From Stegostoma tigrinum (Eukaryota), in NCBI RefSeq assembly GCF_030684315.1, contig NC_081375.1, positions 12,685,581 through 12,749,580 on the forward strand: a stretch of DNA of 64,000 nt, read 5' to 3'. Positions 1 through 45,825 of this stretch are shown one piece after another. The first letter of the stretch is position 1. Every line of letters starts with the position of its first letter. Position numbers and translations under genes: made by a program. Under the pieces are notes generated by a model. The model saw nothing but the letters and a program-made list of their open reading frames with translations. It made no database searches and was not told the origin of the DNA.

Positions 1-756
1 ATCCAATAGAACTTATCGAAGCACATTACAGACTTTATTTTCCCTTTAAGGGAAGCTTTATAAGGGATTCATTTTCTACGCATTTCCAACACCAGCTTTC
101 AATGTTATTTCAAATTTCCAGCAGATTCTCTTTTTATGCTGCAATAAGGGTAGTGAACCCGGGAAACTAGAATTTCCCCCAAAGTCAAAGTCGTATCCTT
201 CAGAGTTTTGAATCACCAGGTCTATGGACCAGTTTGACTCTTTACATGACATACTCATACCTCACCTGGAAATATTTACTGTTAAAATTACGAATGTTTA
301 AAATGCCTCAGGTTTACCCTCACTTCAACGTTGTCAAAAACTGTTTCCTTGAATCAGGAGCCGAACTCGATCCAGAGAAGTGTATTATTTGCTCTTGCAC
401 TTTTCATTCTCAACTGAGTACATAGAATGGTTGAGGGATCCTACACCGAATGTGCCAGTAGCAAGGGGGATTCAGGTTTTGTTGGCACAGTCACTGTCAA
501 ATTTATTGCACGTCCTTTATTGCTCCTTGGAAGGTGGTGCTATCTTTTGGAACCACTGGTGTCCAACTGGTATAGGCACACACACAGGAAGAAAGTTTCA
601 GGTTTTAACATAAGAACACAAGAACTGTAAATGGACTGGGAAAATCAGGTTGGTAGCAGTTTGCAAGGAAAGGAATACGTAGAATGTCTACGAGATGGCT
701 TTTTGTAGCAGCTTGTGGTGGAGCACACTAAGGAACAGGCAATACCAGATTTAGTG

Positions 757-884
757 ATAATGGGAACTGCAGATGCTGGAGAATCCAAGATAATAAAATG
801 TGAGGCTGGATGAACACAGCAGGCCCAGCAGCATCTCAGGAGAACAAAAGCTGACGTTTCGGGCCTAGACCCTTCATCAGAGAG
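757..884 (-). mobile_element. Short PLE terminal-repeat insertion with an intact hammerhead core
   Basis: It matches the 3' terminus of the PLE at 56521-56620. TSD gatttagtg lies at 748-756 and 885-893. The minus strand reads CTGATGA-AGGGTCTAGGCCC-GAAA-CGTC at 880-853. Confidence 0.85.
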
Positions 885-951
885 GATTTAGTGCTGTGGA
901 ATGAGGCAGACTGATAGGTGAAGGAACTCTTAGGAGGCAGTGATCATAATA

Positions 952-1059
952 GGAACACAGCAGGCCAAGCAGCATCTTAGGATGCTGCTTGGCCTGCTGT
1001 GTTCATCCAGCTCTACACTTCGTTATCGCGGATTCTCCAGCATCTGCAGTTCCCATTAT
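952..1059 (+). mobile_element. Fold-back PLE-end insertion
   Basis: Hairpin gaacacagcaggccaagcagcatc / gatgctgcttggcctgctgtgttc. The 14-bp TSD cagtgatcataata lies at 938-951 and 1060-1073. Confidence 0.85.
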
Positions 1060-1914
1060 CAGTGATCATAATATGATGAATTTACTCTGCAATCTGAGAG
1101 AGAGAGAAGATAGAATCAGAGGTAACAATATTACAGCTGCATAAAGGCAACCACAGAGACATAAGGGAGGAGCTGGACAGAACTGACTGGGAGAGGATCC
1201 TAGCAACAAAGACAGTGGAACAGCAATGGCAGGAATTTCTGGGCATAATTCAGGAGAATTACAATTACAGCAAAAAAAAAACCGGAGGAAAATACTCATA
1301 CTAAAGGGAGGACAAGACAACCATGGCTGACAAGAAAAGTCAGGACAGAATAAAAGCAAAAGAGAAAGCATACGATGCGGCGAAGGGCACTGGGAAGCCA
1401 AAGGATTGGGAAGCTTACAAAACCAACTGAGGGCAACAAAAAAAAAAAAAGAGGGAGAAGATTAAATATGAGGGTAAGCTAGCCAGTAATATAAAGGAAG
1501 ACTATAAGAGTTTTACATACATAAAGGGCAAAAGTCAGGCAGGTTTGGACATTGGACTGCTGGAAAATGAAGCTGGAGAGATAGCAGTGGGGAACAAAGA
1601 AATGGTTGTGGAACTGAATAATTGTGTCGCATCAGTCTTCATGATGGAAGACACGAGTAACATGCCAAAAATTCAAGAGAGAGACAGTGGGCAGACCAGA
1701 GTACGGTGATCATCACCGAGGAGAAGGTGCGAGAAAAACTGAATGGCTTGAAGGTACATAAATTACCTGGATCAGATGTACTACACCCCAGAGTTCTAAA
1801 GGAGTTAGCTGAAGAGAAAGCGGAGGCATTAGTGGTGGGCTTTCAGGAATCGCTGGAGTCAGGGAGGGTCCCAGAGGACTGGAAAAAAAAAAATCACTAA
1901 CATAACACCCCTGT

Positions 1915-2513
1915 TTAGAACATAGAACATTACAGCACAGTACAGGCCCTTTGGCCCTCTACCTTGTGCCGACCTGTCATACCGAACTCAAGCCCATCTA
2001 ACCTACGCTATTCCACGTACGTCCATATGCTTCTCCAATGACGATTTAAATGTACCTAAAGTTGGCGAATCTACTACCGTTGCAGGCAAAGCGTTCCATT
2101 CTCTTGCTACTCTCCGAGGAAAGAAACTACCTCTGACATCTGTCCTACATCTTTCACCCCTCAATTTAAAGCTATGCCCCCTCGTGCTCGCCGTCACCAT
2201 CCTAGGAAAAAGACTCTCCCTATCCACCCTATCAAACCCTCTGATTATTTTATATGTTTCAATTAAGTCACCTCTCAACCTTCTTCTCTCTAATGAAAAC
2301 AGCCTCAAGTCTCTCAGCCTTTCCTCGTAAGGCCTTCCCTCCATACCAGGCAACATCCTAGTAAATCTCCTCTGCACCCTGTCCAAAGCTTCCACATCCT
2401 TCTTATAATGCGGTGACCAGAACTGTACGCAATACTCCAAGTGCGGCCGCACCAGAGTTTTGCACAGCTTCACCATAACCTCTTGGTTCCGGAACTCGAT
2501 CCCTCTATTAATA
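1915..2513 (-). mobile_element. Young CR1 3' fragment inserted antisense into an older CR1
   Basis: ORF 2003-2536 reads LVRPHLEYCVQFWSPHYKKD...RRRLRGDLIETYKII. It has an (AGAACAT)n tail and interrupts the host codons NITPLF|KK. Confidence 0.95.
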
Positions 2514-3919
2514 ATTTTAAAAAGAGAGTAAGGCAAAAGACGGAAAGTTACAGGCCGAATAGCCTAGCCATGGTCATGGGTAAGATGTTGGAGTCCATTG
2601 TGAAGGACGAGATTTCTGAATACTTGGAAATGTATAGAAAAAAGGGCAAAGTCAGCATGGCTTCATGAAGGGGAGGTGATGCCTGGCCAATCTGTTCGTG
2701 TTCTTTGGGGAAGTAACAAGCAGGTTAGACCAAGAAGAGCCAATGGATGTTATCTACCTGGACTTCAAAAAGGCGGCTGACAAGGTGCCACACAGGAACC
2801 ACTGAGTAATGTAAGGGCCCACGGTCTTAGAGGGAAGGTAGGAGTATGGTTAGAAGATTGATTGACTGGCAGAAGGCAGAGTAGGGATAAAAGGGTCTTT
2901 CTCAGGATGGCAGGTGGGGACAAAATGATATTCCGCAAGGGTTAGTATTGGGACCACAATTTTTCACTTTATACATTAATGATCTAGATGATGGAACTGT
3001 GGGCATTCTGGCTACATTTGCTAATGATACAAAGATATGTCGAAGAACAAGTAGTATTGAAGAGGTAGGGAAGCTGCAGAAGGATTTAGACAGGTTAGCA
3101 GAGTAGGCGAAGAAGAGGCAGATACAGTACAACATGAGAAAGTGTTATGTCATGCACTATGGTGAGATAGAGGCAAGGGCTATTTTCTAAATGGGGAGAA
3201 AATTCAGAAATCTGAAGTGCAAACAGACTTGGGAGTTTGAGTCTGGGATTCTCTCAAGGTAATCTTGCAGGACGAGTCAGTATTTAGGAAGGAAAATGCA
3301 ATGTTGGCAATTATTTTGAGAAGACTTGAATATAAAAGTAAGGATGTACTTCTGAAGCTCTAGACGACTCTGATCAGGCCACATCTGGAATATCGAATAC
3401 AGTTTTGGGCCCCATATCTCAGGAAGAAGTATACTGACCAGGTTTGGAGGAGGTTCAAGAGAATGATGGAATGAAAGGCTTAATATATGAGGAACATTTG
3501 TGGACTCTGGATCTATGCTCAATAGAGTTTAGAAGGATGAAGGGGGATCTAACTGAAAACGTACAGAATACTGAATGTCTGGACAAAGTGGATGTTGGGA
3601 AGATATCTCCATTAGAGGAGAGACTAGGGCACAGCCTTAGAGTAAAGGGAAGACCTTTTAGAACACAGATAAAAGGAGAAACTTCTTCAGCCAGAGTGCA
3701 GAATCTGTGGAACTCACTACCTCAGAGGCTGTGGAGGGCCAGATGATTGAATACATTTAAGACAGAGATAGATAGGTTTTTGAATGTCAAAGGGATCAAG
3801 GGTTACAGGGAGAATGGTGTTGAGAAACTTATCAACCATGCTTGAACAGGAAAGCAGATTCATTGGGCTGAATGGCCTAACTTCTACTCCTATATCTTAT
3901 AGTCTTATGGTCTACCTAA

Positions 3920-4410: not shown

Positions 4411-4589
4411 TACGGTGGTATTTCAACAGAGCTTGCTGATCATCTTCCCCAGTCAAAATTCTGGAAGCTAGTAAATGGGAAAATCCCAAGTGTGACCAAA
4501 AATGTATGGCAAGGCACATCAATGTACCAATGCCAACATCACTAGGATTTCAGGGAAGTGCAATTTAAGGACAACATTTCCAATTTGGT

Positions 4590-7950: not shown

Positions 7951-8542
7951 AACTATGGAGTATTACTTCACAGTGGCAACCCTTTGAATCCCATCATACT
8001 ATGGCACCACATTGTGCTACCCATATGAAACAAATACATATTAAATCACGGAAGAAAAATAAAAAGTATTGCCAGCACATATTCAATGGATCATTTCTCC
8101 CCAATAACTTTTAGCTTAGATAACTTAGATAACTTTTAAAATAGATATTTGAACCTTTTTCATTCAAGTCTACATGTTCCAAACAATACAAGGCTCTTGT
8201 CTGAAAGCAATTTCACCTCACTCTAGGAAGGGAAACATGTTGTGCAGATGTCCTGTATTATTATCCCTTCCCCAAAAAAATAAATATATTAGATGCTCTT
8301 CTTGACATAATCCAGGCAGAACAGCGTTTACAGAATCTTTTCATTTCATAATATGAAAACCATATGGAAGTGAGGTTTTATACCATAAAACAATTGTCAA
8401 TGGTTACATTTAATATCACAGACAAGTTGCAAGTTGTGGTTAAATTGATGTAAATATGAAGAGATTTAACCAAAAGTATATGTTGTTTAACAGTCTTTGT
8501 ACTAAGGATAGGCATTAGCCCATTTGTACAAAAATGCGGAAG

Positions 8543-9622
8543 AATGGGAGATATAGCAGTTTGGATCGGTAATTGGCTTGCTGAGAGAAGACAGAGGATG
8601 GTAGTTGATGGGAAATGTTCATCCTGGAGACCAGTTACTAGTGGTGTACCGCAAGGGTCGGTGTTGGGTCCACTGCTGTTTGTCATTTTTATAAATGACC
8701 TGGATGAGGGCGTAGAAGGATGGGTTAGTAAATTTGCAGACGACACTAGGGTCGGTGGAGATGTGGATAGTGACGAAGGATGCTGTAGGTTGCAGAGAGA
8801 CATAGATAAGCTGCAGAGCTGGGCTGAGAGGTGGCAAATGGAGTTTAATGCAGACAAGTGTGAGGTGATGCACTTTGGTAGGAGTAACCGGAAGGCAAAG
8901 TACTGGGCTAATGGTAAGATTCTTAGTAGTGTAGATGAGCAGAGAGATCTCGGTGTCCACGTACACAGATCCTTGAAAGTTGCCACCCAGGTTGACAGGG
9001 CTGTTAAGGCGGCATATAGTGTTTTAGCTTTCATTAACAGAGGGATCGAGTTCCAGGACCAAGAGGTTATGGTGAAGCTGTACAAAACTGTGGTGCAGCC
9101 GCACTTGGAGTATCGCGTACAGTTCTGGTCACCGCATTATAAGAAGGATGTGGAAGCTTTGGAAAGGGTGCAGAGGAGATTTACTAGGATGTTGCCTGGT
9201 ATGGAGGGAAGGTCTTACAAGGAAAGGCTGAGGGATTTGAGGCTGTTTTCATTAGTGAGAAGAAGGTTGAGAGGTGACTTAATTGAGACATATAAAATAA
9301 TCAGAGGGTTAGATAGGGACAGCCTTTTTCCTAGGATGGTGACGGCGAGCACGAGGGGGCATAGCTTTAAATTGAGGGGTGAAAGATATAGGACAGATGT
9401 CAGAGGTAGTTTCTTTCCTCGGAGAGTAGTAAGGGAATGGAACGCTTTGCCTGCAACGGTAGTAGATTCGCCAACTTTAGGTACATTTAAGTCGTCATTG
9501 GATAAGCATATGGACGTACATGGAACAGTGTGGGTTAGATGGGCTTCAGATCGGTATGACAGGTCGGCACAACATAGAGGGCCGAAGGGCCTGTACTGTG
9601 CTGTAATGTTCTATGTTCTATG
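8543..9622 (+). mobile_element. Young 5'-truncated CR1 with an open ORF2 C-terminal half (RT and C-terminal domain)
   Basis: The 369-aa ORF contains SGVPQGSVLGPLLF, SKFADDT, WQMEFNADKC and PHLEY.VQFWSP. It ends in an (ATGTTCT)n tail and is near-identical to the copies at 1915, 23030 and 28150. Confidence 0.95.
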
Positions 9623-9829
9623 TACCTCTTCACCGAGAAATGAAGATTCTTAGATCTTCCAGTATAAAATCTTATGGAGTCAGAAAAGTTACATATCTGC
9701 TGGCTTTAGAAATCCATGTCCCACCCCCATTTTTAACAATCATGTTAAAAATGCAGAGAGACCAATTTTACAAATGATAAATTAAATTTCAACAGCAGTT
9801 AGCATAACAGGAAATCCAATAAGAACTTG

Positions 9830-10080: not shown

Positions 10081-10089
10081 TTGGTGAGA

Positions 10090-12734: not shown

Positions 12735-13520
12735 GTGAGTTTTGAGAAGATTTGTAGCTCAGGTTGAGCTACAAATATACGCAACAACTTATTTTAAGGA
12801 TTGAATACCATGGACAACAGTCGAGTGTACTAATTCATAGATTAAACTTGCTTTGATCGGACTTTCCCAGCAACAAAACCCAAACAAACAGACAAAACGG
12901 GCTCAGAAACCATAACCACTCTCCCCGACATCAAAGACATTTCCGAAATGACTGCCAGACTACTCGGACCTCTCGACATCAGGGTAGCCCACAAACCCAC
13001 CGACACACTAAAACAGCAGCTAATGAACTTAAAAGACCCTATACAGACAACAAGCAAAATGAACGTCATCTACAAAATACCTTGCAAGAACTGTGACAAA
13101 CACTACATAGGACAAACAGGTAGAAAGCTAGCCACCAGGATACATGAACATCAACTAGCCACAAAACGGCATGACCCACTATCACTAGTATCCTTACATA
13201 CAGATGAGGAAGGACACCACTTTGATTGGGACAACACATCCGTCCTAGGACAAGCCAAACAGAGACACACGAGAATTCCTAGAGGCATGGCATTCCAACC
13301 GTAACTCCATCAACAAACACATGGATTTGGACCCTATCTACCACCCTCTGAGAAAAAGAACAGGAAATGACATCACCAACCCAAGGAAACCTAAACAGGT
13401 AAGCAGAAAGGGGACATAACACGAGCGCTTCGTCAGAGGCTCACTGATGATGTTACCTAGAATGGTGACCAAACGTCTAAAAACTAACCCTCCAGCTCAG
13501 TGAGCAAACTCACATCCATT
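12735..13520 (+). mobile_element. Penelope-like element (Penelope/Poseidon type) 3' fragment: GIY-YIG endonuclease, terminal repeat, and a short inverted repeat piece at the 5' side
   Basis: ORF 12948-13304 reads NVIYKIPCKNCDKHYIGQTGRKLATRIHEH...HHFDW (GIY-YIG with CCHH). A hammerhead-like core lies at 13444-13477. Confidence 0.9.
13444..13477 (+). ncRNA. Minimal hammerhead ribozyme motif, probably inactive (G12 to C)
   Basis: CTGATGA-T-[GTTACC tagaat GGTGAC]-cAAA-CGTC. It has a 6-bp stem II and an ACGT palindrome in place of stem III, as described for PLE minimal HHRs. Confidence 0.7.
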
Positions 13521-14651
13521 ACTACAAAGGATTAAATTCATCCTGTTCTTCAGGTTCTACTTTAATATTAATGAAATATCCTTTTTTACTCCTCAATGAC
13601 CAAGACATGCCAATATCATAAATGCAATTCAACCACTTTCATACAAGTGCTTTCATAGTCCATTATCTGCTAAAATAGCAGAATCAGGAGAACAATGGCC
13701 AAAAAAGTATTTGCAGAAATTCAAACTATCATACTGTTTATATCTATTTCCAGTGGACAGAAGATATACTGCAGTCAAATGCCTTTTTTCAAAAAAAAAA
13801 GAAGAGAACGACTCTGAACTAACATCTTTAAGTGAATTACATTCTTAAAATTTTCTTTTTTAAACAAGTATTTTATGACTATTTTTAGATGATCGAAGAA
13901 ATGCCAGGAGAGCCTCAGATATTTTTAAGATAATGGCCTGGATTATGCTATAGTAATGACCATGAACCTGTCGGCATCACCGTCATTACCTCACTGAAAC
14001 CGACAGCGATTTTGGAAGTCTCCACATGCACAGGATGCCGTGGAAATCCAGAAGTTATCGTCAGTTTTTTTTTAGTACTCATACGTAAAGTGAACAGTTG
14101 AAGTATCCATAGACTGTATTCTCCAGTGCAATTAAGATATTATGAAAACTTTCACCTCTTACGCTGTTAGTCTCATTGTCAAAACGCTTGAGAGAGTTGC
14201 ATCTTGTTTGTCGTGGTGTAACTAGGTTTTTCACTTCATGCTGACTTCAGAATTACTGCCAAACCCCCTTGCTGACACTGACAAGTTAGTATTATACCTG
14301 TGGAATGTTAAAAGTTTGCCATCAACATTTTCTTTCAGTTTTCACTGCCTTTTACTTGGAGTCACAACAATGCTATTTGACCTTCCTTCTCAGTCACCTA
14401 TTCAGCTTACGATTCAAGTCTCTCATCATTCCATTCAATCTAGTCTGTCTGTTGTTCTTCCTGGCACTCCTATATGCATCATCACCACACATCACCTGTC
14501 TCTCCCCACTGCTGCAAAGATAACCTTACCATTTCATTCTCTCCTTAAATACTTTCTTCAACGTCCTCATAATCTTCACTGTCTATACCAGCCTGTTATT
14601 GAAATTTCTAAGTAAGGATTTTTTTTAAAAAACCTACATCAACTTTATTTT

Positions 14652-14878
14652 GTATCACAGATAATAGGAACTGCAGACGCTGGAGAATCCAAGGTAATAA
14701 AGTGTGGAGCTGGATGAACACAGCAGGCCAAGCAGCATCTCAGGAGCACAAAAGCTGACGTTTCAGGCCTAGACCCTTCAGAGATGTCTCTGATGAAGGG
14801 TCTAGGCCCGAAACGTCAGCTTTTGTGCTCCTGAGATGCTGCTTGGCCTGCTGTGTTCATCCAGCTCCACACTTTATT
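14652..14878. mobile_element. Long fold-back PLE-end insertion (arms of about 85 bp)
   Basis: Arms are at 14695-14780 and 14794-14879. TSD atcaactt(t/c)atttt lies at 14638 and 14879. Confidence 0.9.
14790..14817 (+). ncRNA. Minimal hammerhead ribozyme motif, intact core
   Basis: CTGATGA-A-[GGG tctagg CCC]-GAAA-C-GTC|agc. All conserved core nucleotides and a GUC cleavage triplet are present. There is an extra nucleotide after A9, and stem I is only about 2 bp. Confidence 0.65.
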
Positions 14879-15499
14879 ATCAACTTCATTTTTTTTAAGC
14901 ATCTATTTTAATAGTGGTTTATTTTGCCTTACTAAATTTTTAATTTAAAAAAGTGAAGGGATTCCAAGTGTTGAAAATTCTGGTTTGCTGTCTCTGAGAA
15001 TACTTACACTTGCTAACTTAAACTACCATCAGGGAAGGGAAAAGTCCTGATGGAGATTGCTAAATCTTTGTGGATAGTTTTCATTAACATCAATGGCAAG
15101 CTCCCTTGTTTTCTTATTGACCGCAAAACTCGGGTCATTATACAGAAATATATAATTGAACAACTGGCGTAACAGCATGTTGCAGCATAAATCAGGCCAT
15201 TCAATCCTTCAAGACTTCAAGACATTTTACACTGAATCACATTTCATTTTTTTGGTGCCTCTCCACGTTCTTTTAAATTTATTACGTCCAATTAATGAAT
15301 TCCATTTTTTCAAGGGAGTGCATCAACAATCATCTCAGCATTCCATCTTTTAACCATTTCCTGCACAAAGAATCTTTCTAGCATTCCCCCATCAAGTCTG
15401 TTTTTGGACTTTCTTAAAACTGAAAAAACAAAAAGGGGTCCAACATTATTCATATCAAAGAAAATGTTATGAACAGTAGAATTCTATAAGTTTCTGAGA

Positions 15500-16210: not shown

Positions 16211-17241
16211 TGCTAGATATTAGACACTAATTACAGCTACAATTTTATGTGCCAGCGAGTTAATTCAGCTCTACTGTCAAACACCCAGTTCCTTCACAAC
16301 TTGCACCCAAACCTCCAGTGAGTTTGACTACTGAAATGATTGCCAAGTACTGAGTAGTATTAGCTATAAACTGATATAATTTGACATTATTCCATTGTCA
16401 TCAGTTGTTTGCAAACCATGTTTTGATGCTTCGCAATCATGAAAATAAATTATGTATTTGGGAAGTATAATAGCATGGAGGCAATGAAAGAGAGACAGGC
16501 ATAAAGGAAACCTCAAAATCAAATGCAAGTAATCTGTCCAAGGCCACGGCGCTTTCCTTCACAAAATACTAACAGAATTAAAGCTGCAGAATCCTTCACA
16601 ACTACTGTCAGCTATAACTATCAGAAAAAACAGTATAAATATGACTTTATTAGCCATAAAATTAACTATTACCGCACAATCACACTCCTGCACTTCATAG
16701 AGGACATAACACAATCTGTCTAATTGACCTGTCTACATCTTGGGGTCAATTATGTCAACCTTCAGAGTTCTACTCCCTCCATTAACTCAAAAACATTTGA
16801 CTTTGGAGACAGGCTTGTTTGCACACCTGTTACTTCTAAACCACAATTTAAGATCCCAAGGAAACAAATGTATAAAATAGCTTAAAACTGAGAGAGAATA
16901 GGGGAAAATAAAATAGGTGCAGAAAGGTTATTATGGTACCATTCTGATCATTTGACTGGGTTTATTATTATAATACTGGCTGATCCTTCATGTGTTTGTA
17001 TAATAGGACAAAGACCCCAGTACAGTCTTCATATTACAAGTAGTTACAAATCGGAGTTTTTTAACAAAGAGCACAGATTGAAATTCAATCTTCATTTGTA
17101 AAGTCATATATTGTCATTATTTGTCTATGCAACTGCTACAAATTCCTATATCTGCATTTATAATAAAAAACTACATAAATTTGCAAACACTAATTCCACC
17201 CTTTTGCCAATGGTGACAACAAACTACCACATAGTGGAATG

Positions 17242-17431
17242 CTGGAACTGCCGATGCTGGAGAATCTGAGATAACAAGGTGTAGAGCTGGAAGAACACGG
17301 CAGGCCAAACAGGATCAGAGGAGCAGGAAAGCTGACATTTCGGTTCTGGACCCTTCCCGAAACGTCAGCTTTCCTGCTCCTCTAATGCTGCTTGGCCTGC
17401 CATGTTCTTCCAGCTCTACACCTTGTTATCT
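17242..17431. mobile_element. Fold-back PLE-end insertion (sister subfamily)
   Basis: Inverted arms turn inside the HHR stem II (cccttc|ccgaaacgtc). The 14-bp TSD cacatagtggaatg lies at 17228-17241 and 17432-17445. Confidence 0.85.
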
Positions 17432-18497
17432 CACATAGTGGAATGTTTTGATTCCAGAGTGGTAGACTTACATTTCCATTATTAACATGGAAATGAGAAT
17501 TTAAAAAGTAAACAGCAAGCACCCACATGTGAAATATGTTTAATATTAAAATAAAATTAGGACTGGTTTTAGAATCACAACATGTGATTTGAATAAGCTT
17601 AAGCACTGCATTATCAATCTCAGTCTAGCAATAAAACAAGACCAAAGATCCTGAAATGTTATGATATCATTACTTGTATCTTAATGTCATTTCAGCAAAG
17701 AATCTACCATACCTACCCAATTTGGTCTATGTGGGGCTTTAATTCCACAAAGTATTGGTGATTTTAAATGCCCTCAGGACAAGAAAACGTTGCCTTGCTA
17801 GTGATGCCCCAATCAAAATTAAACCCAAAACACTAACTGGAACTATGATGTTTCACTGCGACTTGCACTTCAATTAGTTCAGAGTTCTACAAATGTCATT
17901 TAGACTGTAATTACAGTGTGCTGTTGACCTTCACTAGTTATCACTGTATCCATATTCTGGGCTGCAACACAGTTTCACAATACTGTCCTCAAAGGTATTT
18001 TGTATGCTTTTTATTCGGCATGAATTTAACTTACATCAATTCCGGTTCGTAGTTAGAATGAAATTGACCAATTGTCTTATTTCAGCGCTTTCTGTGGGGG
18101 CGGGGGGGCGCGCCGCCGCCGAAACACAGGGAATCATACAACTTCCAAACTCATTAACAAAGCTTTCATTCTTAAAAAGCAGGTGTCCAATTCAAATGGA
18201 TTTTATAGGCATCTGGCACAAGTACGCAACCATTACAGACTTCAAAGTCAACACTGCTAGATTATCACCAACCTGTTCAAAGTGTATACAATGCCAACAA
18301 TGAATGTTTCAACTTTTATGCAGATAAAGGTTGAGCTAAGTGAAATGTAAAGCTTCCCCTACATTTCTACTGTTCCTCAGAAAAATACTTTAGTTCTAAT
18401 TTATGAAAAAAGTCATAGAGCTATTTGCCATTTCCTGAAATTAAACTGCTAGAGGTCGTGAAAATATCACTAAATAATGGAGAATTCTACACTGAAC

Positions 18498-18760
18498 CAA
18501 AACAGAAATTGTTGGCAAAACTCAGCAGGTCTGGCAGCATCTGTAGAAGAAAATAGAGTTAACATTTCAAGTTCTATAATCCTTCATCAGCAAGAATGTT
18601 GTAAAATCACACCTTGTATAATTTGTAATCTGATGAAGGCAGTGATTGGTCTCAAAATGTTAACTCTGCTTTCTTCCCACAGATGCTATCAAATCTGCTG
18701 AATTTCACCAGTAATTTCTGTTTTTGTTTCAGAAACATCAGCATCTGTAATTCTTCGTTA
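18498..18760. mobile_element. Older fold-back PLE-end element
   Basis: aaacagaaattg...cagcatctgt...agagttaacattt...ccttcatcag, then a spacer of about 40 nt, then ctgatgaagg...aaatgttaactct...acagatgct...aatttctgttt. Confidence 0.75.
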
Positions 18761-20640: not shown

Positions 20641-20883
20641 CTCGTAACTAATTTAGGTCTTGCTGCTAACACCCTTAGGCCATGAAAGAATAAAAAAATT
20701 TCTGAAAATTAATCATAATGTCCTGTAATACCATGGTGAAAATGCTTGAATTTGAGAAATCCAACTACTACTGAAACACAATTTTTGGGCATTATGAATT
20801 TAGGGCAGACATGCAGTTATAGGAAACTTTTTTCCAACAACCAGATGCCTCAAAGAGTTTAGCAGTCAACAAAGTCTTTTCAA

Positions 20884-21230
20884 AGCAGAAAAGAAATTGC
20901 TGGAGGAACTCAGCAGATCTGACAGCATCTGAGGAGAGAAAGTAGAGTTAGCAATTTGGTCCAATGTTAAGTCCACTGTCGCAATGCTGGATAATGTGGC
21001 ATTATAAAATTACAAAATCCCACTTACAGCAATGTGATCATGACCTCATTGTCTGTTTCTGTGATGTTGACTGGGGAATAAATATTCGCCAGCACACTTG
21101 TGACAACTCCCCTGTTCTTCTCTGCAACAGTGCTACAGGAGTGCGGCATCTATTTAAGGTCTTAACTAAAAGATTGCTCTTGCATTAATACAGCTCTACG
21201 GCAGTACTGTCTTGGACTGTTAGCCTTTCT
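20884..21230 (-). mobile_element. Old PLE terminal-repeat fragment (20884-20975) abutting a Deu-domain SINE remnant (20985-21230)
   Basis: gaaattgctggaggaactcagcagatctgacagcatctg, then tgatgttgactggggaataaatattcgccagcacac, the reverse of the Deu core seen at 53580-53610. Confidence 0.65.
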
Positions 21231-28147: not shown

Positions 28148-29143
28148 CTAGAACCTAGAACCTAGAACATTACAGCACAGTACAGGCCCTTCGGCCCTCT
28201 ATGTTGTGCCGACCTGTCATACCGATCTCAAGCCCATCTAACCCACACTGTTCCATGTACGTCCATATGCTTCTCCAATGACAACTTAAATGTACCTAAA
28301 GTTGGCGAATCTACTACCGTTGCAGGCAGAGCGTTCCATTCCCTTACTACTCTGAGGAAAGAAACTACCTCTGACATCTGTCCTATATCTTTCAACCCTC
28401 AATTTAAAGCTATGCACCCTCGTGCTCGCCATCACCATCCGAGGAAAAAGACTCTCCCTATCCACCCTATCTAACCCTCTGATTATTTTATATGTTTCAA
28501 TTAAGTCACCTCTCAACCTTCTTCTCACTAATCAAAACAGCCTCAAGTCCCTCAGCCTTTCCTTGTAAGGCCTTCCCTCCATACCAGGCAACATCCTAGT
28601 AAATCTCCTCTGCACCCTCTCCAAAGCTTCCACATCCTTCTTATAATGCGGTGACCAGAACTGTACGCAATACTCCAAGTGCGGCCGCACTAGAGTTGTG
28701 TACAGCTTCACCATAACCTCTTGGTTCTGGAACTCGATCCCTCTATTAATAAAAGCTAAAACACGGTATGCCACCTTAAAAGCCCTGTCAACCTGGGTGG
28801 CAACTTTCAAGGATCTGTGTACGTGGACACCGAGATCTCTCTGCTCATCTACACTACTAAGAATCTTACCATTAGCCCTGTACTTTGCCTTCTGGTTACT
28901 CCTGCCAAAGTGCATCACCTCACACTTGTCTGCATTAAACTCCATTTGCCACCTCTCAGCCCAGCTCTGCAGCTTATCCATGTCTCTCTGCAACCTACAG
29001 CATCCTTCGTCACTATCCACAACTCCACTGACCTTAGTGTTGTCTGCAAATTTACTAACCCATCCTTCTACGCCCTCATCCAGGTTATTTATAAAAATGA
29101 CGAACAGCAGTGGACCCACAACCGACCCTTGCGGTACACCACT
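28148..29143 (-). mobile_element. Young 5'-truncated CR1
   Basis: ORFs 28532-29119 and 28286-28528 are separated by a frameshift. The tail reads agaacct-agaacct-agaacat. Confidence 0.95.
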
Positions 29144-30076
29144 CTGTCAAAATTCCATTCAGATTTCTTAGTTCGTACTGCAAAGAGTCAACCAATTACC
29201 AGCATTTTCTTTTTCTTTCTTGTGGACAAGGCCAGAATAAGCTGATATTCTGTGAACATTGCAGGTAAAACTTTTATAGTTATGTAACTGTTGCTTTTAG
29301 GAGGAGAGGTACAAGTGCAACATCAGTCATGGTACCTTTGTCAAAGGGTTATGACTAGCCTATATGTTTTTATTTATCTTCCAGCAGGCCTATTCTGGTG
29401 AACCTGTCATCATGTTAAAGATACTTCAATTTGAGAATAAAAATTGTACCCAGAGAAACAAGTCTTCTTCTCTCACAAACTTTTCATATCAATTGTTGAA
29501 CCATTACTGCACGTCAGCATACTCAAGTCTAAAGTAGCATCTCTAGATGGTTACTTCCTAGCTTCAATTAGAATTTAGTAAAATGTGAATGGAGACAATT
29601 TGAAGAAAACAAGCCTGCAACTTTCCACATTCCAGTCTTTGACATTCCAGTTTTAACATACACAACATTCATTCACAATTTTTTTTTTAAATAAGCTTAT
29701 CTAACACAATGTTGTATTACAACAGCTTACTGTCTTCATCTTAAACCGATCCATAACGATTTAACAATACATTTTACAAATCAATTTTAGTCTCCATCAA
29801 ATAAAAGTCTCAATATCATTATCTTGTTTTCACTGTTAGATATTGTAGTTGTGAGAGGTGACAGTATATGTCATTATGTCAAAAAGCAGAATCAGATTCT
29901 GTCTGTCCTTGACCAGCTCCAAATTCAAAATACTAGTGCCTAAAAAAAAATTCTGAAAACCCATTTCCTCTGCTGGAGAAAACCAGAATCCAAAGGGATA
30001 ATCTCAAAATTTCAGTTTGGCATTTTCAAAATGAAACCAGCATTTTCCCCCCCCCTCTCAGGATGATAGAAAACAA

Positions 30077-34894: not shown

Positions 34895-34950
34895 TTGAGA
34901 CCATATTCCTTGGGATCCAATTTCTGTTTTCTACACACCTCTTCTAAAAC
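34895..34950 (-). CDS. ASPSCR1: ASPSCR1 coding exon 2 (56 bp)
   Basis: ttttctgttcattag|GTT TTA GAA...CTC AA|gtaag encodes VLEEVCRKQKLDPKEYGL(K). Human as recalled is VLEDTCRRQDFNPCEYDLK. Confidence 0.96.
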
Positions 34951-37189: not shown

Positions 37190-38630
37190 CCCAACACCTC
37201 CAAAGCATCTTCCCAAGCGATCACAGAAAGTGCAACACTTTTCCATTTACTTCCTCCCTCTTCACTATCCAAGGCCTCAGGCAGCATTCCCAGTGAAGCA
37301 ACAATTTACTTACAGTTCACCCAATCTAATCTACTGTCGACATTCGTTGATCACAATGTGATCTCCTCTACAATTGGACAATGAAATGCAGAATGGGTGA
37401 CCATATTTGGAACATTGAGCAGATTTGGGTCCCATATCCAAGGAAGGATGGATTGGCCAGATGAGGTTTAGAGGAATGATCCCGGTAAGCGGTTGGGTCT
37501 AAAATCTATCAATTTCAGAAGGATAAGGGGAGGGGATCTGATTGAAACTTACAAGTCTCAATAGAATAGACATGGAGAAGATCCTGCCACGAGTAGGAGA
37601 GTCGAGGACCCAAGGGCACAGCCTCAGAGTGAAGGCATGACGCTTTAGAACTGAGATTAGGAGGAATTTCTTCAGCCAGGGGTGGTTAATCTGTGGAACT
37701 CATCACTGCACGGGCTGTGGAGGTCAAGTCTTTGAGTGCATTTAAAACTGCGATAGATAGGTTCTGGATTATTAAAGGGATCAAGGGTTACGTTGAGGAG
37801 GCAGGAGAATGGAGTTGAAAAGCATATCAGCCATTATCAAATGATGGAGCAGACTCGATCAGTCAAATAGTCTGAAGCTGCTCCTATATCTTACGGTCGT
37901 TGCAGAACACCTACACACTGTCGATTAAAAACTATTCCAAGGTTCAAACTGCCTGACACTTCAACACACCATTATGCTCCCTGACCAACCACTGGGATTG
38001 GAATCCCCACCACTGCCTACCTGCACTCACCTATCACCACCCCCTCCTCTATTAATTTCTGAGCTCCCTTGCCCCTACCCCATTTCTGAAGAAGGGTCCT
38101 GAACCAAAACGTCAACTTTCCTGCTCCTCAGATGCTGCGTGACCCGCTGTGTTCATCCAGCTCCACACCGTGTTATCTCTGACTCCAGCATCAGCAGTTC
38201 TAACTATGTGATTTTTATCTCAGGCCTGCTGCAATGCTCCAAAGAGACTTAGCAAAATCTGGAAGAAGAGCATCTCATTTTCCATTTGGGAACTCTACTA
38301 CCTTCAAGAATGAATATCAAGTTCAATAATTTTAGACCCTGATCACCTCATTCCAATGTCATTTACCCCCACTCTCCAAGTCCCATCATGACATGGGCTC
38401 CTTTCAATGGTGCCAACCCATTTTAACCTACTCATTGACACCATCATCAGCTTTTCTCCCTCCTTGGCTTACAACAACCATCTTTTGTCTGCCTAATTTC
38501 CTTTCTCTCTCTCTGTTCTCCGCTTCCACCTATCTGCTCAGTCCCTTTTCCTCCCAGCCCATCATCAACATAAATACCACCTTTTCCTAGTTACTATCAG
38601 TTGTGCAGGGTCACTGGGCTCAAAAGTTAA
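37190..38630 (+). mobile_element. Old Neptune-type PLE remnant with a nested CR1 (37405-37898) and a nested PLE terminal repeat (37991-38208)
   Basis: Decayed GIY-YIG sequence colinear with 56846-57433 (VKQQFTYSSPNLIYC..., AEHL, LEEEHLIFHLGTL). The nested repeat carries CTGAAGA-AGGG...aAAACGTC at 38086-38113. Confidence 0.75.
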
Positions 38631-38631
38631 G

Positions 38632-40499: not shown

Positions 40500-40810
40500 C
40501 AGGCCGTCTCTCACCTGTAGCAGCGGTGTGCTCGCCGCCACTCTCACTTGCTGCCGCCTACCATTCGGCGCCAGCACCGTAACCGCCGCCGCCGTCATTG
40601 CCATCCCCCGTCAAGCGGAGCTGCAACTGGCACAATGCGCACGCGCCGAGGACGAAGTCACGAAACGGACGTTGACCCCTTTTAGTCACGGCGTGCTCGT
40701 TCCCCACGCCCACGCAGGTACCGCGCACGCGTAACCGACCCCCCGGGAGGCGCGCACGCCATGACTGATCGATTCACCAACCACAACCCCCCGCCCCGGC
40801 ATGCATCCGT
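40500..40810 (-). promoter_or_regulatory. CpG-island promoter of ASPSCR1
   Basis: This is the only extended CpG-rich segment in the window. It has three NRF1-like GCGCACGC motifs (about 40637, 40724, 40752) and a GC box ccccgccc (about 40789). No TATA box was seen. Confidence 0.85.
40515..40604 (-). CDS. ASPSCR1: ASPSCR1 (TUG, tether containing UBX domain for GLUT4) coding exon 1
   Basis: gggATGG Kozak context. It encodes MAMTAAAVTVLAPNGRRQQVRVAASTPLLQ|gtgag (90 bp). Human as recalled is AVSVLAPNGRRHTVKVTPSTVLLQ. Confidence 0.97.
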
Positions 40811-41530
40811 CCAGCCAACTGCTGCAACCTGCCCAGCCAATCACTGCAGCCAGTCCAGAAGACACTGGTGTCAGTCCAGCCAATCATGCAGCCTGCCAGG
40901 CAAATCACTACCGCCCGTCCAGCAAATCCTTACGATCACTGCAGCCAGCCCAACCAATCAGTGCAGTCAGTCCAGTATGTCCAATCACATTAACAATCAA
41001 CCAGTCTAGGGATCCTCATCCCAGCCAATCACTGCAAGAGCCCAGTATGTCAAATCGCATTAAGAACCATATTAAGAATTAAGAATTATTTCTGAAGGGT
41101 CTAGGCCTGAAATGTCAGTCTTCCTGCTCCTCTGATGCTGCTTGGCCTGCTGTGTTCATCCAGCTCTGCACTTTGTAATCTCGGATTCTCCAGCATTTGC
41201 AGTTCCTACTATCTCTGAAACAACATTAAGAATCAACCAGTCAAAGAATCCCCAGCCAATCACTGCACCCATTCCAGCAAATCCATTCACATTCGGAATC
41301 AACCAGTCAAAGGGTCCCCAACCTAGCCAATCACTGCAGCCATCAGAGCAAATCCAATCATATCAATAGTCAACCCCATAAAGGATTCTAAGCCAATCCA
41401 ATCACTTCAGCCAGTCTAAAATGTCATTTCCACATCCAGAATCAACCAGTCAAAGAATTCCCCAGCCCAGCCAATCATATCAAGCCAATTGGGGTCTGTG
41501 TGACCCCCAGCCCCCAGCTCAGCCAATCAA
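40810..41530 (+). repeat. Degenerate tandem array rich in AGCCAATCA (CCAAT/NF-Y) boxes
   Basis: Recurring cccagccaatcactgcagcc and aatcaaccagtc blocks, with about 12 CCAAT motifs. Confidence 0.8.
41091..41220 (+). mobile_element. PLE terminal-repeat insertion within the CCAAT array
   Basis: It starts in the HHR (tctgaagggtctaggcctgaaatgtcag) and runs to cagttcctactatctct. cattaagaa is repeated on both sides. Confidence 0.85.
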
Positions 41531-41573
41531 TATATTGAGCATAAATTTAGTACTAAACATGCAAGAATTTTAA

Positions 41574-41771
41574 TCAGAGATTATGGGAACCCCAGATGCT
41601 GGAGAATCCAAGATAACAAAGTGTGGGGCTGGATGAACACAGCAGGCCAAGCAGCATCTCAGGAGCACAAAAGCTGACGTTTCGGGCCTAGATCCTTCAT
41701 CAGGGAGCGTCTAGGCCCTAAACATCAGCTTTTGTGCTCCTGAGATGCTGCTTGGCCTGCTGTGTTCATGG
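41574..41771. mobile_element. Fold-back PLE-end insertion
   Basis: HHR core on the minus strand at 41703-41676. TSD aagaattttaa lies at 41563-41573 and 41772-41782. Confidence 0.88.
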
Positions 41772-41784
41772 AAGAATTTTAAAC

Positions 41785-42940
41785 TGTGGGGTGGACCGTG
41801 TGGAACTCCAAAAGGGTATTAGCAAGTTGATCGGGTGGGCAGATAGATAGCAGATGAGGTTCAATGCCGAGAAGTGTGAGGTGATGGCCAGAAGAATGTT
41901 GAAAGGCAATATAAAAATGGGGTACAATTCTAAAAGGGGTGCAAGATCAGAGGGACTTAGGTGTGTATGTGCACAGAAGGTGGCAGTACAAGTGGAGAGA
42001 ACGTAGTAACCTCAGCTTAACTACAGTTGGCATAGTGTACAAGAGCAGGGAGGTGATGTTCAACTTGTAACAGGCACATCAGACCTTGTCAACTTTAAGT
42101 ATATTCAAGTTTATCCAAGATTTCCTCCTTATTAATTTTGAACTCTTCTAGTGACTGAATGACCTGCTCAGTCACCATGGCCCAGACAGCATCCTTCTAT
42201 TTTGTAAGAGCAAATGCAAATTATTCATTTAAAACCTTGCCATTCCCCCCCCCCCCCCCTTTTTGGTTTCTGATTGGCCCGATGTCTATCTAATCTTTTA
42301 CTATTAAATGTATATAGTAGGCTTTAGGATTCCCCTTTATGTTAGTTGCTAGTCTTTTTTTATAATTCTTCTTTGCTTCTCTTATTTGTTCTTTCATCCT
42401 TTCTTGTTGAATTGCCCACATACTACTGTAGGTAGCTCTACTGAGTGCAATGTAAGAACACTGTTGTCCCTTACACAATCAGTATCCTGGCCTATTTTGA
42501 GTAATTCGAATCCCCATTGTTACAAATCTACGATGTTGGCACTTCTCTGTAATTTCCCCGCAGATTTCTTCCTCTATGTCCTTTCCACTGGTTGGTGATC
42601 AATAGACTACATTGAACAATATAGTTGTACCCTTTTTATTCAATTCTAATCAAATTGACTTAGTACTTGAACCCCATGAGATATTCTGTGTCTCCAGCAC
42701 TGCAACACTCCTTAACCCATGAGAGGGACTCCAGAATCTCCAGCAGGACTCCAGCACTACCTGACAGTTTCCCTTGGACTGCCTGGTTGTCACATTTTCC
42801 CTTTCTTCCTCCAGTCCCTTAAACTGCAGTGCGGCCACCTCTGTAAACGTGCTATCTACATAATTCAGCCTTCTGAATGCGCTACGGTGTCTCCTGTCGC
42901 CGCTCGATCAGTAGGTCAGGTAATTAAACTTTATTAGATT
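41785..42940. mobile_element. Decayed CR1 fragments (+ 41785-42090, - 42120-42940)
   Basis: QMRFNAEKCEV and DQRDLGVYVH on +. IREAKKNYKKRLATNIKGNPKAYY on -. Confidence 0.7.
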
Positions 42941-43705
42941 CCTGAAGGTATTTTTACAAAATAGCACACCTCAATGTGATGAACAGAAAGTGAATGACTC
43001 CACTCAGCAAATCTCTGTTCTTATACTTGAGTCTTTGATGTTTTCTATGTTCAGAGATTAACTGCTGGGGATTCAATTGCACACAACCTGAGCAACAGAA
43101 TGCAAAAAGTAAGTTTAATCAAAAAATGTTGTTTTGCAAATTTAGTAGTCAGTAGTCAGCATCCATACATCAGAAAAGTTAGGTGCCATAAGACCAAAAG
43201 ACATAGGAGTGGAAGTAAGGCCATTTGGCCCATCACATGCATTACCCATGGGAGAATGTCTTTCACGTAAAACAACAACTTATAGTGACACAATAGCATC
43301 AAAAATGGTCTATGACTTTGTGGTTATATAACAGATGTTAAGTTGTCAAAGAAGCACATATTGGGAATTGGGATCAAAAACCTGCTCAGAGGTGGATTTT
43401 AAGGTAGCCTTATAGGAGAAAATAGAAGTAGAGAGGCAAAGGCGTTTGGTCAGGAAATTTCAGAGCATTACAAACAAAAACAGGAATTGCTGGAAAATCT
43501 CAGCATGTCTGGCAGCATCTGTGAAGAGATATCAGAGTTAATGTTTCAGGTGCAGTGATTGTTCTTCAGAACCGATGGTAGCCAGGAAAATGTTGGTTTA
43601 AATGCAGAAGGTGGTGTTGGGAGTTTTCCCAAAGAGAGAGAAAAACAATTGGACAGACAAACAGACAGTGAATAATGGTCAGCCTAGGAGAATAAATAGC
43701 TGCTT

Positions 43706-44018
43706 GATTAGATGCCATACGGTGTGGAAACAGGCCCTCCAGCCCAACAAGTCCACACTACCCCTTGGAGCATCCCACCCAGACCCATTCCCCTATAACC
43801 CACACACCCCTGAACATTATGGGCAATTTAGCATGGCTGATACACCTAGCCTGCACATCTTTGGACTGTGGGAGGAAACCGGAGCACCCGGACGAAACCC
43901 ACACAGACACAGGGAGAATGTGCAAACTCCGCACAGACAGTTACCCAAGGGTGGAATTGAACCTAGGTGCCTGGTGCTGTGAGGCTGCAGTGCTAACCAC
44001 TGAGCCACCGTGCCACCC
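43706..44018 (-). mobile_element. HE1-type V-SINE
   Basis: Reverse complement of 30077-30390. Confidence 0.9.
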
Positions 44019-44078
44019 GACCGTAACCGCCCGTGGCTAACAATGGATGAGTGTAAAAGCAAACTACGTGATAACAAG

Positions 44079-44245
44079 AGATAATGGGAACTGCAGATGC
44101 TGGAGATTCCAAGATAATAAAATGTGAGGCTGGATGAACACAGCAGGCCAAGCAGCATCTCAGGAGCACAAAAGCTGACAAAAGCTTTTGTGCTCCTGAG
44201 ATGCTGCTTGGCCTGCTGTGTTCATCCAGCCTCACATTTTATTAT
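44079..44245. mobile_element. Fold-back PLE-end insertion
   Basis: Arms of about 60 bp pair perfectly. The 15-bp TSD ctacgtgataacaag lies at 44064-44078 and 44246-44260. Confidence 0.9.
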
Positions 44246-45825
44246 CTACGTGATAACAAGGCCTGGTGTGTGGTGATGGAGGAAAGCATGGGGAAGGTGC
44301 TCAAGCACAAAAATTGTTCTGGATATTGAGTGCAGAAGGCTGTAGAGTTGCCAAGCAGAAAACGCGGTGCTGTTTTTCAAGCTTACACTGAGCTTCACTG
44401 GAGCACTGCAGCAAGATGAGACAGATATGTTGGCCGGGAAAATGGCAGTGTGTTGAGGTGGCAGGCAATGGGCAGCTTGGGGTCTTTCGGCCTTAGGCCT
44501 GGATGTGCAAAGACAAACGGCTGCCAAAGTTGGAGCCAGGGGAGGGGAGGAAGCACATGAGTCCAGGGTTGGAGGAACATCGAGTTCAGGGAGGCTGCAG
44601 GGCTGGAAGTGGTCACAGATTTGGGGGAAGAGGGTACTAGATCATGAGGAGATTTAAACATGCGAATGAGAATTATCAATCAGAATAGCCGGGAGACCAG
44701 GAGAGCCAACGTACATCAGTAAGGATGCAAGTCATGGGTGAATAGGAATTAGGATGAGCCAACAGAAGTTCTGCTCAGTCAAAATTTATCAAGAATGCAC
44801 ATTACGTGACTAACTAGGAAGGCATTAAAAAGTCAAGTCTAGAGGTGACAAAGGCAAAAATGAGTCATTCAGCAGGTCTGAAGGAGGATGGGAAGTGGGT
44901 ATTATTATAAAGGTAAAAGTAGTTGGTGTTTGTGTTACGGAGAAATATGGCACAAGAAGCTCAGATTGCAGACAAACAAGATGCAAAGGTTGTAATTGAT
45001 TTATTTTAACCTGATGTAATTAAAACTAGTGCCCACAATTAAATATCCTTTCTGTTTTCTGTTTCCAGTATATTCTTAGAATCTGCAAATTCCATCTTGT
45101 TTCATTGCTAATTTGAGAGCATTTAAAAATAATTTTGGTTCAGCATTTTGATTTTAACATCTGCCCAAGTTAGAGTATCCCAAATTATTAATCATTAGAT
45201 ATGGGAACTCTAACCATTTCTCCCCTTTGTTGCTCAATGATCAGAGAAGACAGTTGTGCATGTCCACTGTTTAGTTAACCCTAGTGTTCAAGTTTGCAAA
45301 CCTTCATGGTGAGATGGTTTAAATGCATATTGTGAGGTGTGGTTTACTCACTGAGGCAGCTAGCTTTCCTTAGTGGGTGGAATTTAGGTAGCTATCTCCC
45401 AATAGGGCTCATAAAATGCTTATCAAGGTAGCAGGCATTCTTGTGAGAAGTTTGTAACATAATAATGAGCACTGGTTTATTATGTGCATATAGAAAATAA
45501 ATTATTAAAAGAAATAACATTTTGAACATGTGGCATTTATATCAGAAGCCCAAATGCATTGCATCCTGTAGGGTAATCAGCACAAAAAGGTTTTCAATTA
45601 CTAAATGGTCACAAAATATTTAAACAATTTCCAGTAACAGCGGTAAAGAAAGTGTAATAAGATTACTGAGTGTGTGAGTGATAATCCATTTAGCTTTGGA
45701 TTTGTCCAGTGATAAATCAGTGGTGTTACTAAACCTGCATATTAAGATCAGTTAAAGTTTATGAAACAGTACTCAGGAGTAAAACACTTGAAATCGTCTT
45801 TTATTAGTTTGATCTAGTGGTGGTA

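What the first reader, a model, noticed from the sequence alone, without database searches (positions are those of the whole stretch)
748..44260. Young family of miniature, mostly fold-back Penelope-end insertions with clean 9-15 bp TSDs
Seen: seven 110-220 bp insertions (757, 952, 14652, 17242, 41091, 41574, 44079) made only of the terminal repeat of the Neptune-type PLE family at 56521. Five are long hairpins. All end at or near the same 3' terminus (cagcatctgcagttcc[cattatc]). Six have readable TSDs: gatttagtg, cagtgatcataata, atcaactt(t/c)atttt, cacatagtggaatg, aagaattttaa and ctacgtgataacaag. Each hairpin has a different turn point, so they are independent integration products rather than copies of one MITE. 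Known: PLEs often carry inverted 5' pseudo-LTRs, and their TSDs are variable or hard to find. Inference: a GIY-YIG/RT system is making tiny snap-back cDNAs, at about one per 9 kb here. This could be an under-described non-autonomous PLE or retrozyme-like class and a readable record of the PLE integration mechanism.
Basis: partly seen in the sequence, partly recalled or inferred. Interest (0 to 1): 0.75.

Follow-up and report, generated by a model that had tools for sequence, protein, structure and literature searches.

The report
Penelope retrotransposon hairpin stubs in shark
These short DNA hairpins are real stubs left in a shark genome by a known kind of jumping gene (Penelope-like retrotransposons), in a layout already described for that group; they likely form when the enzyme starts copying its RNA from both cut DNA ends at once, so they are ordinary in kind but could serve as a record of how these elements insert.

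Summary
Observation confirmed. Seven inserts of 108-227 bp consist of the hammerhead-bearing 3' repeat (pLTR) of a Neptune-type Penelope-like element; five are hairpins. Three duplicated targets occur once in uninterrupted paralogues. An eighth copy (38038-38207) was missed; three of the eight belong to an older subfamily. Arms pair within each hairpin, and contigs of the same species show many different turn points, so this is not a MITE.

The layout (5'-truncated copy, inverted copy, ~30-nt tail on one arm, short TSD) is published for PLEs, as are ~128-bp PLE insertions and in vitro extension of both cut strands from two internal RNA sites. Snap-back is not the best reading: two of five turns do not fit it, and tailless arms end at a second recurrent start site with 2-3 nt of target homology. 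Best mechanism (0.6): both nicks prime reverse transcription and the two short cDNAs are joined head to head. No separate non-autonomous or retrozyme class is shown. The scan has reported this pattern many times in this and other genomes. New member of a known kind; interest 0.3.

The parts
748..756 (.). TSD of insert 757, left copy (right copy 885-893); encodes DLV of the interrupted LINE endonuclease
757..884 (-). Solo 5'-truncated pLTR stub, element positions -3 to +124, with hammerhead core (CUGAUGA at 880-874) and tail
938..951 (.). TSD of hairpin 952, left copy (right copy 1060-1073; 17 bp with 1 mismatch); encodes SDHN of the same LINE endonuclease
952..982 (-). Hairpin 952, tailless arm, element +40 to about +70
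979..1059 (+). Hairpin 952, tailed arm, element +46 to +124
14638..14651 (.). TSD of hairpin 14652, left copy (right copy 14879-14892, 1 mismatch)
14652..14784 (-). Hairpin 14652, tailed arm, element -2 to about +133, 3-nt deletion in the hammerhead core
14787..14881 (+). Hairpin 14652, tailless arm, element -2 to +92, intact hammerhead core at 14790
17228..17241 (.). TSD of hairpin 17242, left copy (right copy 17432-17445)
17242..17356 (-). Hairpin 17242 (older subfamily), tailed arm, element +6 to +118
17357..17433 (+). Hairpin 17242, tailless arm, element about +19 to +95
38038..38207 (+).
41058..41066 (.). TSD of insert 41091, left copy (right copy 41224-41232); occurs once in neighbouring units of the host tandem repeat
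41067..41090 (+). Filler of repeated target sequence at the 5' junction of 41091
   Evidence: sequence directly
41091..41223 (+). Solo stub (older subfamily), hammerhead start to about +135
41563..41573 (.). TSD of hairpin 41574, left copy (right copy 41772-41782; 16 bp with 1 mismatch from 41558 and 41767)
41574..41709 (-). Hairpin 41574, tailed arm, element -5 to +128
41709..41769 (+). Hairpin 41574, tailless arm, element +11 to +71
44064..44078 (.). TSD of hairpin 44079, left copy (right copy 44246-44260)
44079..44179 (-). Hairpin 44079, tailed arm, element +26 to +126
44183..44247 (+). Hairpin 44079, tailless arm, starting at +29, the first base after the predicted hammerhead cut, to +93; 65 of 65 bases match the other arm
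56521..57678 (-). 5'-truncated Neptune-type PLE: C-terminal ORF with CxxxxCxxC linker (57343-57317) and GIY-YIG domain, 3' UTR, hammerhead core at 56615, ending at the inner (+95) site without tail; no TSD found

Best explanation
The inserts are very short, 5'-truncated integration products of a Neptune-type Penelope-like retrotransposon, and the hairpins likely form when both 3' ends of a staggered DNA cut prime reverse transcription of the element's terminal repeat and the two short cDNAs are then joined head to head. Steps: (1) Shown: each insert is pLTR sequence between 9-17-bp duplications, which implies two nicks that far apart leaving 3' overhangs (inferred geometry). (2) Shown: in all five hairpins each target 3' end runs straight into antisense element sequence. 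(3) Inferred, with in vitro precedent in the anole PLE: one end primes at the outer site (about +124 to +135) and the other at an inner site (+92 to +95, or +70), helped by 1-3 nt of pairing at an AUC-type motif; the stretch between the sites is the known 30-40-nt tail. (4) Inferred: both cDNAs stop early, often near the start of the hammerhead core (-5 to +6) or at or after its cut site (+29), and cellular end joining links them through 0-4 nt of microhomology or short templated fillers. If only one end is extended, a solo stub results (757, 41091). The stubs would be dead on arrival, not a self-propagating family.
For: TSDs real and single in uninterrupted paralogues for 3 of 7 inserts: DLL and SDHN occur once in LINE endonuclease homologue P0013, and the 41091 target occurs once per tandem-repeat unit. 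Arms of a hairpin are sisters in 3 of 3 cases put in the tree, on different subfamily branches (FastTree support 0.76-0.81). Tailless arms end at +92 to +95 in 3 of 5 cases, the site where the ORF-bearing copy at 56521 also ends; chance of 3 of 5 in that fixed window about 0.01, of any 3 within 4 nt about 0.04. In contigs of the same species (run X17) loose ends pile at +93/+94: 1,804 and 1,026 contigs with A- or T-rich, low-agreement flanks (table 7; mapping). Overlap with the target of 2 nt or more at 4 of 5 tailless junctions (P 0.003), or 3 of 5 if the imperfect 41574 TSD extension is not accepted (P 0.04). 2 of 5 turns (952, 14652) do not fit self-copying, and the turns of 17242 and 41574 show at most 1 nt that could prime it. 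One listed joint is a loop-less palindrome centred on AGCT at the predicted ribozyme cut (4 contigs), as expected if two cDNAs ending there anneal. Literature: anole PLE protein cuts and extends both strands and starts at two internal RNA sites that bound the tail (PMC11167929); inverted truncated copy with one-sided tail (PMC8557442; PMC3846280).
Against: Only five hairpins were read in full. 3 of 5 turns are geometrically compatible with snap-back, and the deepest listed joint in run X17 (+37/+31, summed depth 2,269 against 15-20 for single-copy DNA) reads as a 1-bp stem closing a 4-nt loop, which snap-back could make and which may recur in many copies. Later deletion at a palindrome's centre could blur any turn. 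PMC11167929 reports initiation without homology to the target, whereas I read 1-3 nt of homology; for 14652 the 3-nt overlap holds against the family majority but is 1 nt against its own long arm. PMC8557442 attributes the tail to endonuclease resolution and PMC3846280 favours self-priming. Only 15 of 954 joints were listed, chosen by support, and X17 counts were incomplete. Part of the loose-end pile-up comes from older subfamilies diverging at that position (clear in run X2). No orthologous empty site was obtained. Rfam did not recognise the hammerhead, and its cleavage was not tested.
Confidence: 0.6

Rival explanations
1. Snap-back: one cDNA primed at the outer site folds back, copies itself, and the second arm is cut or captured at the inner site, perhaps by the element's endonuclease.
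For: Arms near-identical within hairpins (0 of 65, 1 of 86, 2 of 60, 5 of 77, 2 of 30 mismatches). In 3 of 5 hairpins the tailed arm reaches further 5'. The deepest listed joint looks like a tetraloop fold-back. PMC3846280 argues for self-priming and PMC8557442 for endonuclease resolution of the tail (passages).
Against: 952 has tailless-arm sequence absent from the tailed arm; 14652 has both arms at -2 with a 2-nt spacer; 17242 and 41574 show 0-1 nt of priming stem. A loop-less AGCT palindrome occurs among the listed joints. The inner site is also the end of a non-hairpin copy (56521).
Confidence: 0.2
2. Some hairpins are themselves transcribed and re-copied as a unit by the PLE machinery, i.e. 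a non-autonomous, retrozyme-like family.
For: Several joints in run X17 are carried by 2-4 contigs or have summed depth of 300-2,269 against 15-20 for single-copy DNA. Non-autonomous PLE derivatives exist (PMC8557442; bioRxiv 2026.07.22.740005).
Against: 0 of 10 hairpin pairs in the window share a turn; arms group by locus; the 14 listed intra-hairpin joints are all different. Retrozymes are defined as head-to-tail tandems, not seen here. Contig depth is not a copy number, and microhomology can make the same joint recur independently.
Confidence: 0.1
3. The hairpins are remnants of longer inverted-pLTR insertions whose middle was deleted after insertion, so the turns record later repair rather than integration.
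For: Longer inverted-pLTR insertions with 8-10-bp TSDs are known (PMC3846280); microhomology at several turns fits deletion repair; long palindromes are unstable (general knowledge).
Against: 44079 has 0 mismatches between arms yet is already minimal; solo stubs stop at the same positions as hairpin arms; de novo PLE insertions have a median of 128 bp in Chlamydomonas (PMC9977147).
Confidence: 0.08
4. A DNA-transposon MITE with fixed inverted ends.
For: Short, non-coding, inverted-repeat structure with TSDs.
Against: TSD length varies from 9 to 17; arms are asymmetric and not terminal; every turn differs; the sequence is the 3' end of an RT/GIY-YIG element.
Confidence: 0.02

Closest known systems
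Insertion units of EN+ Penelope-like elements: 5'-truncated copy with adjacent inverted truncated copy and 30-40-bp tail on one end (PMC8557442 Fig. 2 legend; Pen2a_Av of Adineta vaga, PMC3846280; passages seen)
   Same: Head-to-head inverted pLTR, tail of about 30-35 nt on one arm, TSD of similar size (8-10 bp there), hammerhead in the pLTR.
   Different: Here the whole unit is 108-227 bp with no ORF, TSDs reach 14-17 bp, and the family is very abundant (168,951 contigs of one run were laid on a 1.65-kb stretch).
PAc (Poseidon of Anolis carolinensis) in vitro, PMC11167929 (main text seen)
   Same: Both strands cut and extended; two internal RT start sites bounding the tail, one about 111-118 nt past the hammerhead stem II; AT-rich targets (TSDs 70% AT against 60% for the window).
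   Different: PAc is Poseidon clade, this is Neptune type; the paper reports no target homology at initiation, did not follow joining of the products, and found no RNA ends at the ribozyme cut.
Minimal type I hammerheads of PLE pLTRs (PMC4209133, passages seen)
   Same: CUGAUGA core, stem II, GAAA, palindromic ACGU in place of helix III.
   Different: Activity not tested here; sharks are not mentioned in that paper; no Rfam match.
Non-LTR retrozymes (bioRxiv 10.64898/2026.07.22.740005, part 1 and passages seen)
   Same: Non-coding, hammerhead-bearing, derived from PLE terminal repeats, present in one chondrichthyan.
   Different: Defined as head-to-tail tandems of at least two hammerhead units; these inserts are single or head-to-head, and several lack a whole hammerhead.
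L1 twin priming (recalled, not from a call)
   Same: Both target ends prime cDNA synthesis and the products are joined by microhomology.
   Different: In L1 the inverted part comes from upstream, non-overlapping RNA; here the two arms copy the same stretch, giving a hairpin.

Membership tests
EN+ Penelope-like element, Neptune type (partner at 56521) | C-terminal GIY-YIG endonuclease followed by the terminal repeat | tested here: met
   Weak Pfam GIY-YIG hit (E 0.027, below cutoff); 87% and 81% identity to whale-shark and zebra-shark proteins and hits to GIY-YIG/RT proteins; repeat follows the ORF.
EN+ Penelope-like element, Neptune type (partner at 56521) | CX2-5CxxC linker before the endonuclease (Neptune and Nematis, per PMC8557442) | tested here: met
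   CNRRKCYTC at 57343-57317; absent from the other GIY-YIG fragment at 12846. Does not separate Neptune from Nematis.
EN+ Penelope-like element, Neptune type (partner at 56521) | RT phylogeny within the Neptune clade | not tested
PLE insertion unit with inverted pLTR | Inverted 5'-truncated copy directly at the 5' end | tested here: met
   5 of 7 inserts.
PLE insertion unit with inverted pLTR | 30-40-bp tail on one end only | tested here: met
   Arm 3' ends differ by about 23-41 nt in 14652, 17242 and 44079; by about 55 nt in 952 and 41574, whose tailless arms end at +70.
PLE insertion unit with inverted pLTR | Target-site duplication, single at the empty site | tested here: met
   7 of 7 have TSDs; single copy in paralogues for 3 of 7; orthologous empty sites inconclusive.
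PLE minimal hammerhead | Conserved core with stem II and palindromic helix III positions | tested here: met
   Motif scan and fold against the description in PMC4209133; Rfam silent.
PLE minimal hammerhead | Self-cleavage | not testable with these tools
   Only indirect: 44079 tailless arm starts at +29; 13 of 14 listed joints have both arms at or after +29 (biased list).
Non-LTR retrozyme | Head-to-tail tandem of at least two complete hammerhead units | tested here: not met
   No such tandem among the 9 copies in the window.
Non-LTR retrozyme | Circular RNA intermediate | not tested
   No RNA run held the stretch searched.
MITE | Fixed terminal inverted repeats and fixed TSD length shared across copies | tested here: not met
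   TSD 9-17 bp, asymmetric arms, all turns different.

The most novel reading that the evidence does not exclude
Shark genomes hold a very large natural library of PLE 'strong-stop' products in which one RT complex primed both nicks at two fixed RNA sites, with arm ends mapping the RNA 5' end and the hammerhead cut in vivo. This would be the first genomic demonstration of two-ended target-primed reverse transcription and of in vivo cleavage by a minimal PLE hammerhead.
Probability: 0.4. Interest if true: 0.55.

Novelty: new member of a known kind. Interest (0 to 1): 0.3.

Why it matters
How PLEs finish integration and why they carry inverted repeats with a one-sided tail is still open: PMC11167929 leaves the later steps unvalidated. 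Tiny hairpins keep both outer junctions, the inner junction and the TSD in about 200 bp, and sharks have very many of them, so a genome-wide count can decide between two-ended priming, snap-back and endonuclease resolution without bench work. The layout itself is known, so the value lies in the test set, not in a new class of element.

Tried and rejected
No assembly is held for this window, so the genome-wide table asked for could not be made. Pattern scans for further loci: metagenome contigs 0 and 1 (L001 matches only the 21-nt pattern, chance), genome contigs 0, viral contigs 0. Rfam gave only below-threshold microRNA hits, as any long hairpin would (6 hits); rejected. Orthologous empty site at 41091 and 41574: no listed contig of organisms A, B or C bridges either site; one organism A contig (431 nt) aligns 41227-41559, beginning at the 41091 TSD, with 96 further letters not listed; inconclusive. 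Assembly artefact rejected: contigs of run X17 cross three junctions with 0 differences (records 16, 19, 21) and TSDs exist. No TSD found for 38085, 56521 or the copies of the second PLE family. No nucleotide-level paralogue of the 757, 952, 14652 or 17242 flanks in the window. No fixed target motif in seven TSDs beyond AT richness. Paper searches for a report of such shark mini-hairpins found none; subscription journals, Repbase and Dfam were not searchable, and no supplements were opened.
Full report
What is there. A BLAST of 757-884 against the window finds the seven inserts named, one more copy at 38085-38200 and the end of the element at 56521. Edge searches give the six TSDs as written and a seventh for 41091. 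All 7 of 7 have an exact direct repeat of at least 8 bp at their edges against 5 of 500 random pairs. Five inserts are fold-backs. Contigs from a public run of the same species cross three of the junctions without a difference, so these are not assembly artefacts.

The duplications are real duplications. 757 and 952 sit in a decayed LINE endonuclease: the frames read EQAIPDLV | DLVLWNEAD..GGSDHN | SDHNMM, and the uninterrupted homologue P0013 has one DLL and one SDHN. 41091 sits in a degenerate tandem repeat whose other units carry the target once. An orthologous empty site could not be shown (inconclusive; only two of seven sites were laid).

What the sequence is. The element at 56521-57678 (minus strand) is a 5'-truncated PLE: weak Pfam GIY-YIG hit, 87% and 81% identity to whale-shark and zebra-shark proteins, and a CX4CxxC linker that PMC8557442 gives for Neptune and Nematis. 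Its 3' repeat begins with a minimal hammerhead motif of the kind described in PMC4209133; Rfam does not score it. Counting the C of CUGAUGA as +1, with the predicted cut after +28, the arms span: 757 -3 to 124; 952 46 to 124 and 40 to about 70; 14652 -2 to 133 and -2 to 92; 17242 6 to 118 and 19 to 95; 41574 -5 to 128 and 11 to 71; 44079 26 to 126 and 29 to 93; 41091 hammerhead start to about 135. At least two subfamilies are involved: 757, 14652, 41574 and 44079 are 94-97% identical to 56521; 952 is 87%; 17242, 41091 and 38085 are 79-83%. In 3 of 3 hairpins with both arms in the tree the arms are sisters, on different branches (the short arms of 952 and 41574 were left out as too short). So each hairpin came from its own template, or its arms were homogenised later.

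Beyond the window. No assembly was available. Laying contigs of four runs on 40750-42400 placed 168,951 contigs for the same species, 31,499 for organism A and about 2,500 each for B and C. The 14 listed joints inside the 41574 hairpin are all different arm pairs, with 939 more joints unlisted; this rules out one fixed hairpin. Loose ends pile at +93/+94 (1,804 and 1,026 contigs in X17) and near the start of the hammerhead (1,062 and 776), although older subfamilies diverging at these places inflate the counts. The list is biased to well-supported joints, counts in X17 were incomplete, and depth is not copy number.

How it most likely works. In every hairpin both target 3' ends run directly into antisense element sequence, which is what a primer extended by reverse transcription looks like. 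One arm starts at the outer site, the other at an inner site that recurs (3 of 5 at +92 to +95, as does 56521; 2 of 5 at about +70; chance 0.01-0.04). Tailless junctions overlap the target by 2-3 nt in 3 or 4 of 5 cases (P 0.04 or 0.003). Snap-back needs the second arm to be a subset of the first and a priming stem at the turn: 952 and 14652 fail the first test, 17242 and 41574 show at most 1 nt of stem, and 44079 turns at the self-complementary AGCT just after the predicted ribozyme cut with a re-templated 10-nt repeat. A loop-less AGCT palindrome is also among the listed joints. I therefore favour priming from both nicks followed by end joining (0.6). Against it: n is five, later central deletions could mislead, the deepest listed joint looks like a tetraloop fold-back, and published authors have preferred self-priming (PMC3846280) or endonuclease resolution (PMC8557442).

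Comparison with what is known. PMC8557442 (passages) and PMC8969392 (passages) describe 5' truncation, an adjacent inverted truncated copy and a 30-40-bp tail at one end as general PLE features. PMC3846280 (passages) shows such units with 8-10-bp TSDs, one with an empty allele. PMC11167929 (parts 1-2 of 4) shows cutting and extension of both strands and two internal start sites bounding the tail. PMC9977147 (passages) reports de novo PLE insertions of median 128 bp. PMC2377424 (passages) places the promoter in the pLTR and notes inverted repeats of variable size. Retrozymes are tandem arrays by definition (bioRxiv 10.64898/2026.07.22.740005, part 1 and passages), which these are not. Five searches found no paper on such ORF-less hairpins in sharks; Repbase, Dfam, subscription journals and supplements were not seen. 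L1 twin priming is recalled, not from a call.

Earlier notes of this scan. The same pattern was reported often: 199 of 306 notes in this genome fit 'Penelope hairpin', and 67 findings in at least 12 genomes hold all my search words. These are unchecked AI notes and add no evidence; the reading that shared stops near the hammerhead start mark the RNA's 5' end is taken from them and only partly tested here.

Verdict. Real, correctly assigned to a PLE, independent products, but the smallest form of a known insertion layout rather than a new class; the snap-back mechanism is less likely than two-ended priming. New member of a known kind, interest 0.3; 0.55 if a genome-wide count proves two-ended priming and in vivo ribozyme cleavage.

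Noticed in passing
window 18495-18760: Hairpin of a second, older PLE family with the same layout: both arms stop at the CUGAUGA start, about 40 nt of unrelated spacer between them, a tail-like extension on one arm; arms 76% complementary, no TSD found.
   Followed up: partly
window 20883-20965, 43472-43570, 47880-47956, 49282-49359, 49612-49651, 58653-58748: Solo stubs of that second PLE family; several also stop at the start of the hammerhead core.
   Followed up: partly
window 12846-13480: A third PLE fragment: GIY-YIG without the CxxC linker (Poseidon-like), followed by its own hammerhead-like motif near 13445.
   Followed up: partly
window 38217-38336 and 44319-44585: Decayed GIY-YIG fragments of older PLEs directly beside copies 38085 and 44079; the two flanks are 70% alike, so these inserts landed in or next to older PLE remains. 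The 44079 target also resembles the element's own inner end site.
   Followed up: no
window 41067-41090: 5' junction filler made of repeated pieces of the target duplication, as seen in templated end-joining insertions.
   Followed up: partly
window 14780-14784 and 41091-41096: Two copies have lost one 3-nt unit of the hammerhead core repeat, likely by slippage; in 14652 only one arm has it.
   Followed up: no
window 40780-41480: Degenerate tandem repeat of about 70-bp units next to a GC-rich stretch at 40700-40780.
   Followed up: no
window 41225 (run X2, record 24): An organism A contig begins at the right-hand TSD of 41091 without element sequence, with lower depth to the left; possibly an empty or polymorphic allele, not proven.
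   Followed up: partly
window 2003-2563, 8460-9653, 22867-24317, 28532-29245: Several fragments of a LINE reverse-transcriptase family (Pfam RVT_1 for 8460); ordinary.
   Followed up: no
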